Of a DNA stretch of 64,000 nucleotides, positions 1 to 9,447 are shown in pieces. The position numbers and the translations under genes are program-made. The notes beneath the pieces were generated by a model. The model saw nothing but the letters and a program-made list of their open reading frames with translations, was not told the DNA's origin and ran no database searches. Numbering within the stretch: the stretch's first letter is position 1; each line of letters begins with the position of its first letter. Origin of the DNA: Escherichia phage ECBP2; the sequence record NC_018859.1. One strand, given 5' to 3'.

Positions 1-557
1 CGCACTGCGTGCAACGCTGAAAAAGAAAGAACATAAAGAAAGTATTAAAAGAATAATAATAACATCAATTATCAATACCAATCTAATTAATACATACATC
101 ATTAATCCACCCATAATCATTACATTCAGAATCATTTACATTCAAACCGGGCCAACCTGCAAGGCAGTTGGTCAGAACTATGGGGCGTTGCAATGGTTGC
201 TTACTGGTATTAATAGCTTCGATATAATCAAGCCTTTACTAGTTCGTCATCAGGGCTGGCCTTTCATCCCTTCTCAACATGAGTAAGAGAAATACGGGTA
301 GGAAATCACTGGTTAGATATACATGGGTAAATAATGCATGTCTAATATCAATGGGTAGGGTATTTATGGGTAGGCATGCCACTGATAGCAGGTAGGGCAA
401 GGCTTAGAGCTTAAAGGCTGATTGATTTCCTAAAGACGATCACCAGCAGAATAACCCTTTTTTATTTGAGGACTCCCCCTTTTTAACAATTCGCCGCAGA
501 GCGCCTAGCCCCACTCGGTCAAATCAGAATTTTAAACAGATATATATAAGGTTGAAT

Positions 558-719
558 ATGAATCTAATTAAAGTATTTAGACGGATGAAGTGTAAGCACA
601 ATTACTATCCTCTTCGTAAAGCTTACGGGGATGAAAGAATACATGGTCTCTACCTATCAACATGGAAGTGTAAGGAATGTGGTAAGTTGAGATTCAGTAC
701 ATGGATGGATAGACCTTAA
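558..719 (+). CDS. small hypothetical protein (53 aa) with Cys/His pairs suggesting a zinc ribbon
   Basis: ATG at 558 preceded by AAGG; translation MNLIKVFRRMKCKHNYY...WKCKECGKLRFSTWMDRP; below the ORF-track length cutoff; stop overlaps the next tiny ORF (TAATG). Confidence 0.3.
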   Translation: MNLIKVFRRMKCKHNYYPLRKAYGDERIHGLYLSTWKCKECGKLRFSTWMDRP

Positions 720-946
720 TGGAAATAATCTTTTGGTTAGTAATAGTCTTCTGTTTATTCATCTGCTTCTCTATAGCAAGATGTATCAAGTATGACTAAT
801 GACATGGCCTTAACATGAGGGTGCCTTTATGACATGCCCTTTACTTGAACGTAGTGAACTACTTCAGCGTACACGGGTTTATACATGGGTGGGCCTTTAG
901 ATGAATACGCCTTTATGGGTTGACCCTTACTCAGAGGAGAACAAAT

Positions 947-1201
947 ATGTTTCTAGACTTTTTATCAGAGTTGATTCCTTACTTTCGCACTGAGACATGT
1001 GCATTCAAAGTTGAAGAAGATGGGGACTTTGAAGTAATAACTTGTTTGGGTAGATTGGTAGACCTAGACGACGATGAAGATTTTGATGTGACAATAGATT
1101 TGAGTTCATTGGGTTGGTTGTACATGAGATTTTGCATAACCTACAAACCCGAGACTTATAAAGATTATCGTTATACCACTGAAGGAGAGAATGATGAATA
1201 A
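947..1201 (+). CDS. hypothetical acidic protein
   Basis: ORF-track frame 920..1201 begins at a TTG; the internal ATG at 947 follows GGAGA; acidic composition. Confidence 0.5.
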   Translation: MFLDFLSELIPYFRTETCAFKVEEDGDFEVITCLGRLVDLDDDEDFDVTIDLSSLGWLYMRFCITYKPETYKDYRYTTEGENDE

Positions 1202-1850
1202 CAATATGACAGGAACTAATACACTGAATGCAATCTATGAGAACATGGGATGTAAAGGCGAGGTTGTTTACAATGGTAATCTCCGTCCTTTATCAGAGGA
1301 CACTCTCTATCTGAATCGTGTTCATGAAACCACTGGAGGTAAATCCCGAGTTGAGATGGTAAAACAATTGGCTCATGATTCTGTGTATGGGTATGCTCCT
1401 TCAACCCGTGAATTATGGGAAGGTTTGATTCCTCGTACAGAAGCTAAAGATGTGAAAGATTATTTCACTGTAGCAAAGGAAGTTAAACGTAAGCTTCCTT
1501 CCAATCTAGAAGTTGTTCCGTATGTATCTGACAAACATGCACACCTGCCGGATTATGCCCGTGAGATGATTGAGATGATTGAAGAAGCCGAGTATGAAGC
1601 TCTGAATAATTATCTCAATTCAAAAGACCAATGGTCTCGTAATGTAGTAATTGATGAAGAAGGTAATGAAGTAGTTACGTGGGTGCATGTTAGTGAACAA
1701 GCTCTGGACCCCGAGCTTGAAGAATACAAAAAATTTTTGGCGTCCTCTTCTTTTGATGTAGAGAATGACAAGTCCGTTCCAGTTACTTGGAAAGGTGAAA
1801 CGGTAGCTCTCCAGACTTTGTTCAACCTACACGTAGGTGATGTAGACTAA
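1191..1850 (+). CDS. hypothetical protein
   Basis: 219-aa ORF, GAAGGAGAG immediately upstream, overlaps the previous stop. Confidence 0.6.
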   Translation: MMNNNMTGTNTLNAIYENMGCKGEVVYNGNLRPLSEDTLYLNRVHETTGGKSRVEMVKQLAHDSVYGYAPSTRELWEGLIPRTEAKDVKDYFTVAKEVKRKLPSNLEVVPYVSDKHAHLPDYAREMIEMIEEAEYEALNNYLNSKDQWSRNVVIDEEGNEVVTWVHVSEQALDPELEEYKKFLASSSFDVENDKSVPVTWKGETVALQTLFNLHVGDVD

Positions 1851-1860
1851 TAAAGGTGTT

Positions 1861-1885
1861 GCCTCCTTCAGTGGGAGGCTTTTTG
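1861..1885 (+). terminator. rho-independent terminator candidate
   Basis: GCCTCC-ttcagt-GGGAGGC stem-loop followed by TTTTTG. Confidence 0.5.
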
Positions 1886-1914
1886 TTATAACGATAATGT
1901 AGAAGGAGTATACA

Positions 1915-2382
1915 ATGTTTGGAGAAAAAGGAGAACTCACGCCTACACAGGTAGCTGAGGTTACAGGAAGATTACCCGGTGTAACTGATGAATTGGAAAG
2001 CCGTGGTATGGAGCCAAGCACAGGGAAGTTCCAAAAGGGAAATAAGTTCGGACGACCCAAAGGTAGTAGAGGTAAGTTGACACAGCTCATGTTGGACCGA
2101 GTTGCTGCAAGTCATCTGTCCCCTGATGAAGTGCTGATTCAAATTTATGAAGACCCAAATATTCCACCTGATCTTAGATTCAAAGCTGCAAGTAAAGTTG
2201 CAGATCTGGTATATCCGAAGGCAGCTTCTGTTGAGATTAAGATTGAGGATGAGAATGTAATTAACGAGGATTCGTTGAACGCACAAATCAAGGACTTCTT
2301 GGCTGGAGCATTAGGTACAGATGTGCTACCTCCAGAGGACTCTGAGGACGCTGAAAAGGAGGAGGAAGCGGACGAGAGTTAA
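1915..2382 (+). CDS. putative terminase small subunit / DNA-binding protein
   Basis: Directly upstream of the large terminase gene; basic GNKFGRPKGSRGK segment and acidic C-terminus; RBS GAAGGAG. Confidence 0.4.
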   Translation: MFGEKGELTPTQVAEVTGRLPGVTDELESRGMEPSTGKFQKGNKFGRPKGSRGKLTQLMLDRVAASHLSPDEVLIQIYEDPNIPPDLRFKAASKVADLVYPKAASVEIKIEDENVINEDSLNAQIKDFLAGALGTDVLPPEDSEDAEKEEEADES

Positions 2383-2499
2383 TTAAAGGAAAGGGTTCCC
2401 CTTCTAGTAAAGCGCTAGGAGATTTGTTACCCTGTATGAAGAGGGGAGGGTTCTTTTCGCGAGGGATCTCTCCCTTTTTTATTTTCAATTGGAGGAAAC

Positions 2500-4041
2500 A
2501 TGTCATTAGATAAAGAAATATATGAAGCACTAACTGGAGACAAGCTTACGACAGAGGAGAAAAAGGCTCTGCTTGAAATGCTGAAGGATAGAGATCAATG
2601 GAGAAAGTATAATAGGATTCTAGCTTTCAAAGCATACCAGTTTCAGAAAGAGTTTTATGCAGCAGGATTGAAGCATCGCTTTAGATTCTTGTGTGCAGCG
2701 AACCGTGTTGGTAAATCTTACAGCGAGGCATACGAGTTTGCTTGTCATGTCACAGGTCGCTATCCAACGTGGTGGACAGGATATAGATTTAATCGACCCA
2801 TATTGGCTTGGGCAGTAGGGATTACAGGGGACTCTACAAGAAAGGTATTGCAAAAGGAATTGTTTGGTACACCAATCGGAAAGGACACCAACCTAATAGG
2901 AACAGGAGTTATTCCTCGTGATGCAATTGTCATAGACACAATTGAACGAGATGGTAATAAATTACAAATCGTACAAATCAAGCACCAAAACGCTAGAGGT
3001 GAATTCGATGGGCTGAGTACGTTAGAATTCCGTTCTACCCAACAGGGTGAACACACATTAATGGGTGCTACAGTGGACTATATTTGGCTGGACGAAGAAG
3101 ATCCTTACGAAAGTATGGCAATTTTCTCTCAGTGCGTTACACGTACACTTACTACTAAAGGTTTAGTTACTATTACAGCAACACCAGAGAACGGTTTAAC
3201 AGAGCTGGTGGACAAGTTTATGAAAGGTGAAGGGGACGAGAACACAGGTTCTCTGTATTTCCAGAACGCTTCTTGGTGGGATGCACATGTCGATATAGGT
3301 GGACACATCTCTGAACAAGATATTAAAGATATGACTGAAGGTATTCCAGCGTGGCAATTAGAAATGCGCTCTAAAGGTATGCCTCTGTTGGGTTCAGGTT
3401 TGATTTACGATGTATCTGATGATTCAATTAAGTGTGACCCGTTTGAAATTCCTGAGACATGGAAACGCGTATGTGCCATTGATATTGGTATTGATCACCC
3501 GACGGCAGCTGTATGGTCAGCATACGATGCGAACACCGATACAATCTACGTTTATGACTGCTATAAAGAAAGCGGCTTCACTCCAGTGTATCATGCTCCT
3601 GCAATTAACGGACGTGGACAGTGGATTCCAGTGATACTACCTCATGATGCGGACAATACCGAGAAGGGTAGTGGTGCTTCTGTAGCTCAATTCTATAAAA
3701 ATGCAGGTGTTAACGTACAAAGTGAGACCTTCCATAACAAGATCGGAATGGATGGTAAGAAGAACTTCTTTGTGGAGCCGGGAATTACTGATATTCGTGA
3801 ACGTATGATGTCAGGTCGATTCAAAATCTTTAATACTACCGCATGTGCTAAGCTCTTTGAAGAGAAAGCACGTTACCATCGAAAAGTTGGTAAGATTATT
3901 AAAGAACATGATGACCTTATGGATGCAATGCGATATTCAGCGTGTTCTGTTACACACAGAGGTCGGTCTAAGCATGACGCTAGCTATGGTAGCTCGTCGC
4001 TTTATCAAGAAAATATTAACAGATGGAATTCGAGTTACTAA
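2500..4041 (+). CDS. terminase large subunit
   Basis: 513 aa; Walker-A-like CAANRVGKS near the N-terminus, acidic motif WLDEEDP, C-terminal nuclease-like region; RBS GGAGG. Confidence 0.85.
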   Translation: MSLDKEIYEALTGDKLTTEEKKALLEMLKDRDQWRKYNRILAFKAYQFQKEFYAAGLKHRFRFLCAANRVGKSYSEAYEFACHVTGRYPTWWTGYRFNRPILAWAVGITGDSTRKVLQKELFGTPIGKDTNLIGTGVIPRDAIVIDTIERDGNKLQIVQIKHQNARGEFDGLSTLEFRSTQQGEHTLMGATVDYIWLDEEDPYESMAIFSQCVTRTLTTKGLVTITATPENGLTELVDKFMKGEGDENTGSLYFQNASWWDAHVDIGGHISEQDIKDMTEGIPAWQLEMRSKGMPLLGSGLIYDVSDDSIKCDPFEIPETWKRVCAIDIGIDHPTAAVWSAYDANTDTIYVYDCYKESGFTPVYHAPAINGRGQWIPVILPHDADNTEKGSGASVAQFYKNAGVNVQSETFHNKIGMDGKKNFFVEPGITDIRERMMSGRFKIFNTTACAKLFEEKARYHRKVGKIIKEHDDLMDAMRYSACSVTHRGRSKHDASYGSSSLYQENINRWNSSY

Positions 4042-9438: not shown

Positions 9439-9447
9439 TAATGTATA
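9439..9447 (+). promoter_or_regulatory. TAATGTATA promoter-like motif
   Basis: Exact TAATGTATA about 34 nt upstream of the 9481 start; the same 9-mer recurs upstream of genes on both strands. Confidence 0.35.

What the first reader, a model, noticed from the sequence alone, without database searches (positions are those of the whole stretch)
250..940. ORF-free leader with clustered short direct repeats (ATGGGTRGG / GCCTTTA) ahead of the structural module
The first ~900 nt contain no ORF of 60 aa or more on either strand. They carry repeated short elements: (C/T)ATGGGT(A/G)GG at about 273, 355, 370, 880 and 918, and GCCTTTA / CCCTTTA at about 825, 838, 892 and 910. Two tiny ORFs are embedded (558..719, a zinc-ribbon-like protein; 719..799, a hydrophobic peptide). 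Arrays like this often mark packaging recognition sites or clustered early promoters or operator sites.
Basis: seen in the sequence. Interest (0 to 1): 0.45.

Follow-up and report, generated by a model that had tools for sequence, protein, structure and literature searches.

The report
Phage genome end with repeat arrays
The "leader" is the physical left end of a phiEco32-like E. coli phage genome: a 249-bp terminal repeat plus a small operon, filled and flanked by short same-strand DNA boxes that probably mark where the packaging enzyme cuts, much as in phage T7, so the region is real but largely ordinary for this phage group.

Summary
The repeats are real, strand-biased and far more clustered than chance allows. 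The region is not a leader of the structural module. It is the concatemer junction, or left end, of a Kuravirus (phiEco32-like) podophage.

By homology to experimentally mapped ends (phiEco32, SU10, YF01, NC-B), the genome end lies at 257|258. The direct terminal repeat (DTR) is 258-506.

- The ATGGGTRGG copies at 293-374 are four AYGGGK boxes inside the DTR. They are conserved in position, with the first box at +37, across three DTR length classes.
- The GCCTTTA/ATGGGT copies at 807-930 form a second array. It lies inside a small left-end operon (558-1850), which has its own terminator. The late promoter and small terminase gene follow at 1895/1915.
- In relatives, a third array sits before the right DTR.
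- Both DTR boundaries share a CT|AG(S)C core.

T7 has the same layout with an unrelated box (CCTAAAG). My best reading is that these are protein-binding arrays that mark the junction for terminase cutting and DTR duplication. This is inferred, not shown. The rivals are origin iterons, promoters or operators, and recombination blocks. The DTR is known for the family; I found no description of the box arrays in the papers I could read. Interest is modest.

The parts
1..257 (.). Unique right end of the genome, which abuts the terminal repeat in a concatemer or collapsed assembly. It is AT-rich (GC 0.29 in 1-150). It holds a 16-nt tandem repeat at 115-144, a hairpin at 149-175 and an ATGGGG box at 180.
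   Evidence: It is homologous to the sequence that precedes the right DTR in KBNP1711, Bas89 and Bas92. Composition is, the tandem repeat.
232..238 (+). GCCTTTA box about 20 nt before the left boundary.
   Evidence: A (G/C)CCTTWA box sits at the same place in most relatives.
255..261 (.). Left DTR boundary core GCT|GGCC. The predicted genome left end is between 257 and 258.
   Evidence: RGCCTYTC is unique at this position in every relative, and it is base 1 of the phiEco32, SU7, NC-B, 4E8, YF01 and SU10 records. SCTRGSC occurs only 3 times in the window, and two of those are the two predicted boundaries.
258..506 (+). Direct terminal repeat, 249 bp. The window holds a single copy.
   Evidence: The length was scaled from the invariant GAGGACTCCCC at 468. 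In phiEco32 the DTR ends 38 nt after the start of that motif. The 4E8 record annotates 206 bp, and the NC-B record carries an exact 250-bp repeat at both ends with the same boundaries.
293..302 (+). AYGGGK box 1 (TACGGGTAGG), at offset +37 from the genome end.
   Evidence: A box sits at the same offset in all three DTR length classes, and these columns are invariant.
322..331 (+). AYGGGK box 2 (CATGGGTAAA), within the invariant TATACAYGGG.
350..374 (+). AYGGGK boxes 3 and 4 (AATGGGTAGG and TATGGGTAGG), 15 nt apart.
455..485 (+). CCCTTTTTTA, 10 nt, then CCCCCTTTTTA, including the invariant GAGGACTCCCCC. This is the most conserved part of the DTR and ends 21 nt before the right boundary.
   Evidence: Alignment. 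The same repeat and position are described for SU10 (PMC4281155). The YF01 paper notes a conserved 130-170 block (PMC9965538).
504..510 (.). Right DTR boundary core CCT|AGCC. The predicted cut is between 506 and 507.
516..552 (+). Conserved block GGTCAAATCAGAATTTTAAAC-N3-TATATATAAGG. It is the presumed promoter of the left-end operon.
   Evidence: It is conserved in all relatives. The SU10 authors call it a potential sigma-70 promoter, and the corresponding, duplicated stretch is annotated as a promoter in 4E8. It was not picked up by the consensus scan.
558..719 (+). Small zinc-ribbon-like gene (53 aa; CxH...CxxC).
   Evidence: It matches phrog_7696 at E 4e-17. Diverged alleles in the relatives keep the Cys/His pattern.
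719..799 (+). Accessory 26-aa hydrophobic peptide gene. Its start codon overlaps the preceding stop (TAATG).
   Evidence: It is present in 4E8, KBNP1711, Bas89 and TH38, and absent from phiEco32 and SU7.
807..930 (+). Left array. (G/C)CCTTWA boxes lie at 807, 823, 837, 893 and 909, with a degenerate one at 924. AYGGGT boxes lie at 873, 885 and 915. Unit spacing is 14 or 16 nt.
   Evidence: An array is present in every relative, but copy number varies and small ORFs are inserted within it.
947..1850 (+). Two further genes of the left-end operon (947-1201 and 1191-1850), of unknown function.
   Evidence: They match phrog_12698 and phrog_12176. Neither has a Pfam domain.
1861..1903 (+). Intrinsic terminator (1861-1889), followed by a gp36-type late promoter TAATGTAGA (1895-1903).
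   Evidence: It matches the SU10 late promoter 'gttgataatgtagaaggag'.
1915..4041 (+). Putative small terminase (1915-2382) and large terminase (2500-4041). These are the likely trans-acting partners of the junction.
   Evidence: TerL has Pfam Terminase_6N and 6C domains. TerS is assigned by position, by a weak DUF5681 match, and by the HHpred match to the PaP3 small terminase reported in PMC9965538.

Best explanation
Region 250-940 spans the concatemer junction, or physical left end, of a phiEco32-like (Kuravirus) podophage.

The genome end lies at 257|258. Positions 258-506 are the 249-bp direct terminal repeat (DTR). After that come a promoter-like block and a small left-end operon.

The short repeats are same-strand arrays of two box types, AYGGGK and (G/C)CCTTWA, spaced about 14-16 or 28-32 bp apart.
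- One array fills the left half of the DTR.
- One array lies about 300 bp to its right, at 807-930.
- In relatives, a third array lies 300-450 bp before the right DTR.

The most likely function is that the arrays are binding sites for an oligomeric DNA-binding protein. The small terminase is the prime candidate. The zinc-ribbon protein encoded on the spot is an alternative. The bound protein would mark the junction so that the large terminase cuts at the two boundaries, which share a CT|AG(S)C core and give blunt ends, and so that the DTR is duplicated as in T7-type packaging.

Shown: the identity of the region, the conservation, the end-specific clustering and the shared boundary core.
Inferred: which protein binds, and the role in packaging.
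For: Identity of the region.
- 96 phage records match, all of them E. coli, Shigella or Salmonella phages; every record whose taxonomy I looked up belongs to the Kuravirus group. Several start exactly at window position 259.
- The end motif RGCCTYTC and the DTR end were mapped in 15 relatives.
- phiEco32, YF01 and SU10 have exact 193-bp DTRs with these boundaries. Their ends were mapped experimentally (PMC4281155, PMC9965538).
- NC-B has an exact 250-bp DTR of the same class as the window.

Boxes.
- They are enriched and lie almost entirely on the + strand: all 8 AYGGGK boxes and 6 of 7 SCCTTWA boxes.
- Box columns are invariant across three DTR classes, while the flanking sequence diverges.
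- The first box always sits at +37, and spacing is about 14-16 or 28-32 bp.
- In the whole phiEco32 genome, the eleven densest 300-bp windows for these boxes all lie at the two ends.
- The right-end array is not reached by the early promoter, which points away from it. This argues for a DNA-level role.

Boundaries.
- CTAGSC occurs 14 times in the 77.5 kb of phiEco32, and two of those are the mapped boundaries.
- SCTRGSC occurs 3 times in the window, and two of those are the predicted boundaries.

Small terminase. It is at least 90% identical across all E. coli kuraviruses whatever the DTR class. That fits a shared degenerate box.

T7, checked directly. There are 3 CCTAAAG boxes in the 160-bp DTR, 11 just after it and 3 before the right DTR. 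This is the same architecture.
Against: - There are no binding or packaging data for these boxes in any kuravirus I could find.
- The boxes are short and degenerate.
- The left array sits inside an operon, 300 bp from the DTR, so it may have a different job from the DTR array.
- The best-conserved part of the DTR is not the boxes. It is the T-run/GAGGACTCCCCC block near the right boundary, which could be the real recognition site.
- Left and right boundaries are only weakly similar beyond the core (P from 0.01 to 0.6 per genome).
- The core motif was defined after looking at the data.
- As far as I recall, the function of the analogous T7 arrays has never been established.
- The window holds only one DTR copy, so the ends of this particular phage are inferred by homology.
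Confidence: 0.55

Rival explanations
1. The boxes are iterons of a replication origin. An initiator, from the phage or the host, binds the arrays that flank the AT-rich stretch at the junction between the divergent transcription units, and opens the DNA there.
For: - Phased direct repeats lie on both sides of a strongly AT-rich segment (GC 0.29 in window 1-150; relatives).
- GC skew changes sign near 150-230.
- The region is the only long non-coding stretch between the divergent gene blocks.
- A distant relative, GAP52, carries four perfect DnaA boxes in the equivalent non-coding region.
- From memory, T7 has origin-associated promoters near both ends.
Against: - No initiator gene is known or evident.
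- No DnaA boxes are present here.
- The left array lies inside a transcribed operon, far from the AT-rich stretch.
- The skew change coincides with the change in gene orientation, so it is not specific evidence.
- The boxes also sit inside the DTR, at a fixed offset from the cut site.
Confidence: 0.17
2. The boxes are transcription signals: promoters or operators for the host polymerase or for the phage sigma factor gp36. They might couple transcription to packaging, as at the T7 junction.
For: - A conserved promoter-like block follows the DTR (516-552).
- The invariant TATACATGGG reads CCCATGTATA on the minus strand. That is one base away from the gp36 element AATGTATA (consensus from PMC12276001).
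- The left array could act as a roadblock inside the left operon.
Against: - No sigma-70 consensus site lies in 250-940.
- No TAATGTATA site with at most one mismatch lies there. The nearest is at 1895.
- All six published SU10 gp36 promoters keep AATGTA, which these boxes lack.
- Minus-strand starts in the left DTR would run off the genome end.
- The right-end array lies 130-190 bp behind the early promoter.
Confidence: 0.12
3. The boxes, especially those of the left array, are conserved junction sequences. Homologous recombination swaps small gene modules at them. They persist as by-products of that exchange and are not protein-binding sites.
For: - The window is a fine-scale mosaic. Its best relative changes at about 140, 257, 450, 550, 700, 800 and 950, that is, at the conserved blocks.
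- Different small ORFs are inserted in or beside the left array in phiEco32, NJ01, Bas89, KBNP1711 and Bas92.
- In the relatives whose zinc-ribbon gene is not followed by the hydrophobic-peptide gene, the first GCCTTAA box is the Pro-stop codon pair of the zinc-ribbon gene.
Against: - It does not explain the tandem 14/16-nt periodic arrays, the single-strand orientation, the fixed +37 offset in the DTR, or the third array at the right end.
- Any conserved block would attract crossovers, whatever its function.
Confidence: 0.1
4. The repeats are a chance clustering of short words in a non-coding stretch.
For: The motifs are short. With two mismatches allowed, the 10-mer is not enriched across the whole window (122 observed against 108 expected).
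Against: - Local enrichment has P from 1e-5 to 1e-8.
- The boxes are conserved in every relative examined, despite diverged flanks.
- In phiEco32 they cluster only at the genome ends.
Confidence: 0.01

Closest known systems
Direct terminal repeats of phiEco32-like phages (phiEco32, SU10, Paul, YF01; 192-193 bp)
   Same: - Homologous sequence and the same first bases (RGCCTTTC).
- The same invariant GAGGACTCCCCC block and CCCTTTTTTA pair 21 nt from the right boundary.
- The same downstream promoter-like block and zinc-ribbon gene (PMC4281155, PMC9965538).
   Different: - The DTR here is 249 bp, not 193. The extra length lies in the middle part. The boxes read ATGGGT rather than ACGGGG.
- This longer class is seen in NC-B, SU7, MLP3, Bas87 and Bas88. 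It is not discussed in the papers I could read, where SU7 was reported as 53 bp.
- The AYGGGK and GCCTTWA arrays and the shared boundary core are not mentioned in those papers.
Phage T7 terminal repeat with its flanking arrays of CCTAAAG (the SRL and SRR arrays of Dunn and Studier 1983; the names are from memory)
   Same: - A short exact DTR.
- The same-strand short box occurs inside the DTR (3 copies).
- A dense periodic array follows just after the left DTR (11 copies, 13-nt period).
- A few copies precede the right DTR.
- Early promoters lie beyond the array.
   Different: - The box sequence is unrelated.
- Here there are two box types.
- The left array is separated from the DTR by a promoter and one or two small genes.
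- Kuraviruses have no phage RNA polymerase, so the T7 mechanism that couples polymerase pausing at the junction to packaging cannot apply as such (a point also made in PMC4281155).
pac and cos sites built from repeated small-terminase binding elements (lambda cosB R sites, P1 pac hexamers, SPP1 pacL/pacR boxes; recalled from memory)
   Same: - Several short, same-sense boxes lie next to a specific cut site.
- The cut-site sequence also occurs elsewhere in the genome, so specificity must come from the flanking arrays.
   Different: - Those systems make cohesive ends or headful series, not exact DTRs.
- Binding by the small terminase is demonstrated there and only inferred here.
- There is no sequence similarity.
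Iteron-type replication origins
   Same: Phased direct repeats of about 15 bp lie next to an AT-rich stretch, in the main non-coding region between divergent operons.
   Different: - No initiator gene is adjacent.
- The boxes are only 6-7 bp long.
- The arrays lie at a fixed offset from the genome end and inside the DTR.

Membership tests
Kuravirus-type short direct terminal repeat (genome end) | Sequence homologous to ends that were mapped experimentally in relatives, with the same boundary bases. | tested here: met
   RGCCTYTC at 258 equals base 1 of phiEco32, YF01, SU10, NC-B, SU7 and 4E8. The right boundary ...GCCT|AGCC at 506|507 aligns with theirs.
Kuravirus-type short direct terminal repeat (genome end) | The same sequence is present at both ends of the virion DNA of this phage. 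| not testable with these tools
   The window holds one copy only (GAGGACTCCCC occurs once) and no reads are available. The right-end sequence abuts the DTR directly, as expected for a collapsed or permuted assembly.
Kuravirus-type short direct terminal repeat (genome end) | Kuravirus gene content and order next to the end (small operon, small terminase, large terminase, portal and so on). | tested here: met
   ORF order. TerL is 92-97% and TerS 90-97% identical to the kuravirus proteins. The gp36-type late promoter sits at the homologous place.
T7-like terminal short-repeat arrays | The same short box, on one strand, inside the DTR and in arrays on both flanks. | tested here: met
   DTR boxes and the left array are in the window. 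The right-flank array was seen only in relatives, because the window starts 257 nt before the boundary. The T7 layout was verified.
T7-like terminal short-repeat arrays | Box sequence CCTAAAG, or homology to the T7 ends. | tested here: not met
   The boxes here are AYGGGK and (G/C)CCTTWA. The arrangement is an analogue, not a homologue.
Terminase recognition site (pac/cos type) | Specific binding of the small terminase to the repeated elements, and a requirement for them in packaging. | not testable with these tools
   There is only indirect support: end-specific clustering, a conserved TerS and a shared cut-site core.
Cluster of sigma-70 early promoters | -35 and -10 hexamers with 16-18 bp spacing, repeated. 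| tested here: not met
   No site lies in 250-940. The whole 1-2600 stretch has 5 sites against 6.7 expected. There is one conserved promoter-like block (516-552), and it is non-canonical.
phiEco32 gp36-dependent promoters | tAATGTAtA (core AATGTA) upstream of the start site. | tested here: not met
   No match with at most one mismatch lies in 250-940. The nearest is 1895-1903. The minus strand of the boxes reads CATGTATA, which lacks the conserved first A.
Structured RNA leader or known RNA family | A stable or conserved secondary structure, or an Rfam match. | tested here: not met
   RNA fold of 795-950 has z = -0.32. DNA fold of the DTR has z = +1.01. There is no Rfam match at E up to 1.
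Iteron origin | Direct repeats beside an AT-rich unwinding region, plus a cognate initiator. | tested here: inconclusive
   The repeats and the AT-rich stretch are present. No initiator is identifiable and there are no DnaA boxes.

The most novel reading that the evidence does not exclude
The AYGGGK and GCCTTWA arrays, together with the CT|AG(S)C boundary core, form a two-part recognition-and-cutting signal. With it, a terminase related to those of PaP3 and P22 (32-38% identity) makes exact blunt-ended terminal repeats without any phage RNA polymerase. If so, kuraviruses would offer a simple, sequence-defined system for working out how short DTRs are duplicated. That question remains unresolved for T7 and, according to the SU10 authors, is 'completely different and unknown' for these phages.
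Probability: 0.35. Interest if true: 0.5.

Novelty: new member of a known kind. Interest (0 to 1): 0.3.

Why it matters
The result fixes the physical ends of this genome at 258 and 506. That is useful for annotation, for ordering the assembly and for engineering the phage.

It shows that kuravirus DTRs come in at least three length classes (193, 206 and 249 bp) built around the same boxes. This corrects impressions left by individual records: 53 bp for SU7, and an annotated 275-bp repeat in PAS59 that does not coincide with the DTR inferred here by homology.

It also gives concrete, mutable candidates for the packaging signal of a therapeutic phage group whose DTR-generating mechanism is unknown: four DTR boxes, the left array and two CT|AG cut cores.

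It is not a new kind of element.

Tried and rejected
- **RNA or DNA structure.** Folds of the left array and of the DTR are no better than shuffled sequence.
- **Rfam.** No match.
- **Tandem Repeats Finder.** It sees only a 16-nt repeat at 115-144. The arrays are too degenerate for it.
- **Sigma-70 and gp36 promoter scans.** Nothing in 250-940.
- **Covariation of TerS with box flavour or DTR class.** There is no signal, because TerS is at least 90% identical in all E. coli kuraviruses.
- **Distant relatives.** Salmonella phage SeKF_80 and Cronobacter phage GAP52 have other repeats, or DnaA boxes, and none of these boxes. Their ends are unmapped, so they are uninformative.
- **IMG/VR scan with the invariant DTR 14-mer.** It returned mostly chance hits and one new kuravirus contig.
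- **PDB sequence searches with TerS and the zinc-ribbon protein.** No significant hits.
- **Ungapped 24-mer comparison of the left and right boundaries.** Only weak similarity. The shared signal is confined to the core.
- **The window-specific hairpin at 149-175.** It is absent from KBNP1711, so I did not treat it as part of the conserved system.
- **Primary phiEco32 papers.** Savalia 2008 and Pavlova 2012 are not held in the library. What they say is taken second-hand from PMC4281155, PMC9965538 and PMC12276001.

Full report
**1. What the window is**

A distant-mode search with bases 1-1200 hits 96 phage records, all of them E. coli, Shigella or Salmonella phages; every record whose taxonomy I looked up belongs to the phiEco32-like group (Kuravirus and sister genera, Gordonclarkvirinae). 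Several records (SU7, NC-B, UKE3, HC-25922) begin exactly at window position 259, and several have a second matching place in the same record. That is the signature of a terminal repeat.

- TerL (2500-4041) is 92-97% identical to the kuravirus large terminases.
- The ORF before it (1915-2382) is 90-97% identical to the gene that the YF01 authors assign as small terminase (PMC9965538).
- No record is identical to the window. The best match over 1-2400 is about 92% over three quarters of the query.

**2. Checking the observation**

- There is no ORF of 60 aa or more in 1-900, and the two small ORFs are at 558-719 and 719-799, as stated.
- The 10-mer YATGGGTRGG has only two exact matches in 64 kb, at 365 and 884. 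One-mismatch copies lie at 293 and 350. Two-mismatch copies lie at 278, 322 and 914.
- GCCTTTA/CCCTTTA lies at 823, 837, 893 and 909, with further copies at 232 and at 807 (GCCTTAA).
- In 225-940, [GC]CCTT[TA]A occurs 7 times against 0.30 expected. AYGGGK occurs 8 times against 1.07 expected, always on the + strand.
- A k-mer scan with no prior motif puts ACATGG, GCCTTT(A), GGGTAGG and ATGGGT at the top, with P from 1e-5 to 1e-8.

**3. Mapping the genome end**

I fetched the equivalent region of 15 relatives. In every one:
- the word RGCCTYTC occurs once in the relevant stretch;
- it lies 153-210 nt before an invariant GAGGACTCCCC;
- it is base 1 of the records that start at a terminus.

The records with mapped or exact repeats agree:
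- phiEco32's record carries an exact 193-bp repeat at both ends. Its ends were mapped by restriction analysis and primer walking (PMC9965538, citing Savalia 2008).
- SU10 (read drop-off, blunt ends; PMC4281155) and YF01 (full-length nanopore reads; PMC9965538) also have exact 193-bp repeats with the same first and last bases.
- 4E8 is annotated with 206 bp.
- NC-B carries an exact 250-bp repeat at both ends.

In all of them the DTR ends 38 nt after the start of GAGGACTCCCC. Applied to the window (motif at 468), this gives a DTR of 258-506, or 249 bp. That is the long class shared with NC-B, SU7, MLP3, PAS59, BS3, Bas87 and Bas88.

Window 1-257 is homologous to the unique right end that precedes the right DTR in the relatives. 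The window therefore reads through a concatemer-type junction with a single DTR copy.

**4. Anatomy**

- *DTR boxes.* The DTR has four AYGGGK boxes at offsets +37, +66, +94 and +109. The 193- and 206-bp classes have four to six. The first box is at +37 in every class. In an alignment of the three classes, the invariant columns fall in four places: the terminus, the boxes (AACGGG, TATACAYGGG), the T-run/GAGGACTCCCCC block, and the last two bases. The sequence between them diverges or is deleted.
- *T-run pair.* CCCTTTTTTA-N10-CCCCCTTTTTA ends 21 nt from the right boundary. This is the repeat already described for SU10 (PMC4281155).
- *Left-end operon.* After the DTR come a conserved promoter-like block (516-552), the zinc-ribbon gene, an accessory hydrophobic-peptide gene and the second array (807-930).
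- *Second array.* It is built of (G/C)CCTTWA units 14 or 16 nt apart, with interspersed AYGGGT boxes. An array is present in every relative examined, but copy number differs, and different small ORFs are inserted within or beside it.
- *Third array.* In the relatives, 3-4 AYGGGK boxes about 29 nt apart lie 300-450 nt before the right DTR. They sit behind the leftward early promoter, not downstream of it. This part is outside the window.
- *Whole-genome check.* In phiEco32, the eleven densest 300-bp windows for these boxes all lie at the two ends.

**5. The boundaries**

In every genome the cut falls just before (A/G)G(C/G)C. In all but a few it falls after CT: for example, left ...CAGTGCT|AGCC and right ...GAGCGGCT|AGGC in phiEco32.

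- CTAGSC occurs 14 times in the 77.5 kb of phiEco32, and two of those are the mapped boundaries.
- SCTRGSC occurs three times in the window: at 255, 504 and 8619.
- Beyond the core the two boundaries are only weakly alike. The motif was defined after looking, so I treat this as suggestive.
- A cut at the centre of the CT|AG palindrome would fit the blunt ends reported for SU10.

**6. What it is not**

- Not a structured RNA or DNA element.
- Not a cluster of sigma-70 promoters.
- Not gp36 promoters. The consensus tAATGTAtA occurs at 9439, 26289, 35940, 36011 and 43005, and as TAATGTAGA at 1895, but not in 250-940 (consensus from PMC4281155 and PMC12276001).
- Not the leader of the structural module. 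ORFs 558-1850 form a separate unit that ends in a terminator (1861-1889). The late promoter at 1895 and TerS at 1915 follow it.

**7. Mechanism**

I commit to the reading that the arrays are phased binding sites that mark the junction for the terminase. The terminase then cuts at the two core sites, and the DTR is duplicated as in T7-type packaging.

Grounds:
- clustering only at the genome ends;
- a fixed offset from the cut;
- a single orientation;
- spacing of about 15 bp;
- conservation through DTR length changes;
- a small terminase conserved across the DTR classes;
- a cut-site core too common to give specificity on its own;
- the parallel with T7.

I checked the T7 parallel on the T7 sequence. 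There are three CCTAAAG boxes in the 160-bp DTR, eleven just after it with a 13-nt period, and three before the right DTR.

None of this shows binding or function. The identity of the region I hold at about 0.9 and the packaging role at about 0.5.

The rivals are listed separately with their tests: origin iterons (the AT-rich spacer, the skew change, the DnaA boxes of GAP52), transcription signals, and recombination junctions (the mosaic map).

**8. Novelty**

DTRs of this phage group are well known, and the T-run repeat has been described. I found no mention of the following in the accessible papers; the two primary phiEco32 papers could not be read:
- the AYGGGK and GCCTTWA arrays;
- the three length classes;
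- the shared boundary core.

This is a new member of a known kind. It adds a small piece of comparative anatomy that makes the packaging signal testable.

Noticed in passing
window 1-1300: The junction region is a fine-scale mosaic. The closest relative changes along it: 1-130 is 100% KBNP1711-like (and the window starts at the same base as that record), 150-257 is Bas92-like, 258-450 is SU7/MLP3-like, 451-550 is SR02-like, 551-700 is 98-100% NJ01-like, 701-800 is TH38-like, 801-950 is BS3/4E8-like, and 951 onward is Bas88-like. The breakpoints fall at the conserved blocks.
   Followed up: partly
window 149-175: An imperfect hairpin (CCAACCTGC-AAG-GCAGTTGG) lies in the right unique end. It sits in an insertion relative to KBNP1711 and was not seen in the other relatives whose right ends I printed.
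   Followed up: partly
window 115-144: There are two tandem copies of a 16-nt unit (AATCATTTACATTCAG) in the AT-rich right end.
   Followed up: no
window 521-533: AATCAGAATTTTA, just right of the DTR, fits the IHF consensus WATCARNNNNTTR (recalled from memory). About half of the relatives have AATTGAAATTTTA instead, which does not fit.
   Followed up: no
L007 (phiEco32) 253-496: The annotated phiEco32 gene 1 (296-496) is in a different frame from the conserved zinc-ribbon ORF (253-417). The zinc-ribbon ORF is the one annotated in SU10 and NJ01 and conserved at the protein level in all relatives. The phiEco32 annotation reads through the box array and is probably wrong.
   Followed up: partly
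window 1191-1850: Homologues of this ORF are annotated as 'ABC transporter' in many records and in PHROGs (phrog_12176). The protein has no Pfam domain at E up to 0.1, so the name looks unfounded.
   Followed up: partly
L005/L096 (SU7) and L002 (PAS59): The SU7 record repeats only 53 bp at its right end (published as a 53-bp DTR), although it has the full 249-bp class sequence at the left end. The 275-bp repeat_region annotated in PAS59 starts 208 nt before the homologous terminus. Both probably reflect assembly artefacts, not true ends.
   Followed up: partly
L020 (Cronobacter phage GAP52) about 455-640: There are four perfect DnaA boxes (TTATCCACA), plus one inverted copy, in the 1.7-kb non-coding stretch before the small terminase gene. 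This suggests a DnaA-dependent origin or a DnaA sink at the equivalent place in a distant relative.
   Followed up: no
window 9439, 26289, 35940(-), 36011, 43005(-): These are exact matches to the gp36 promoter element TAATGTATA. Two of them, 9439 and 26289, match the positions of the published SU10 late promoters.
   Followed up: partly
window 625-630: An ACGGGG box lies inside the zinc-ribbon gene (codons for AYGDE) and is conserved in most relatives. It could simply be coding constraint.
   Followed up: no
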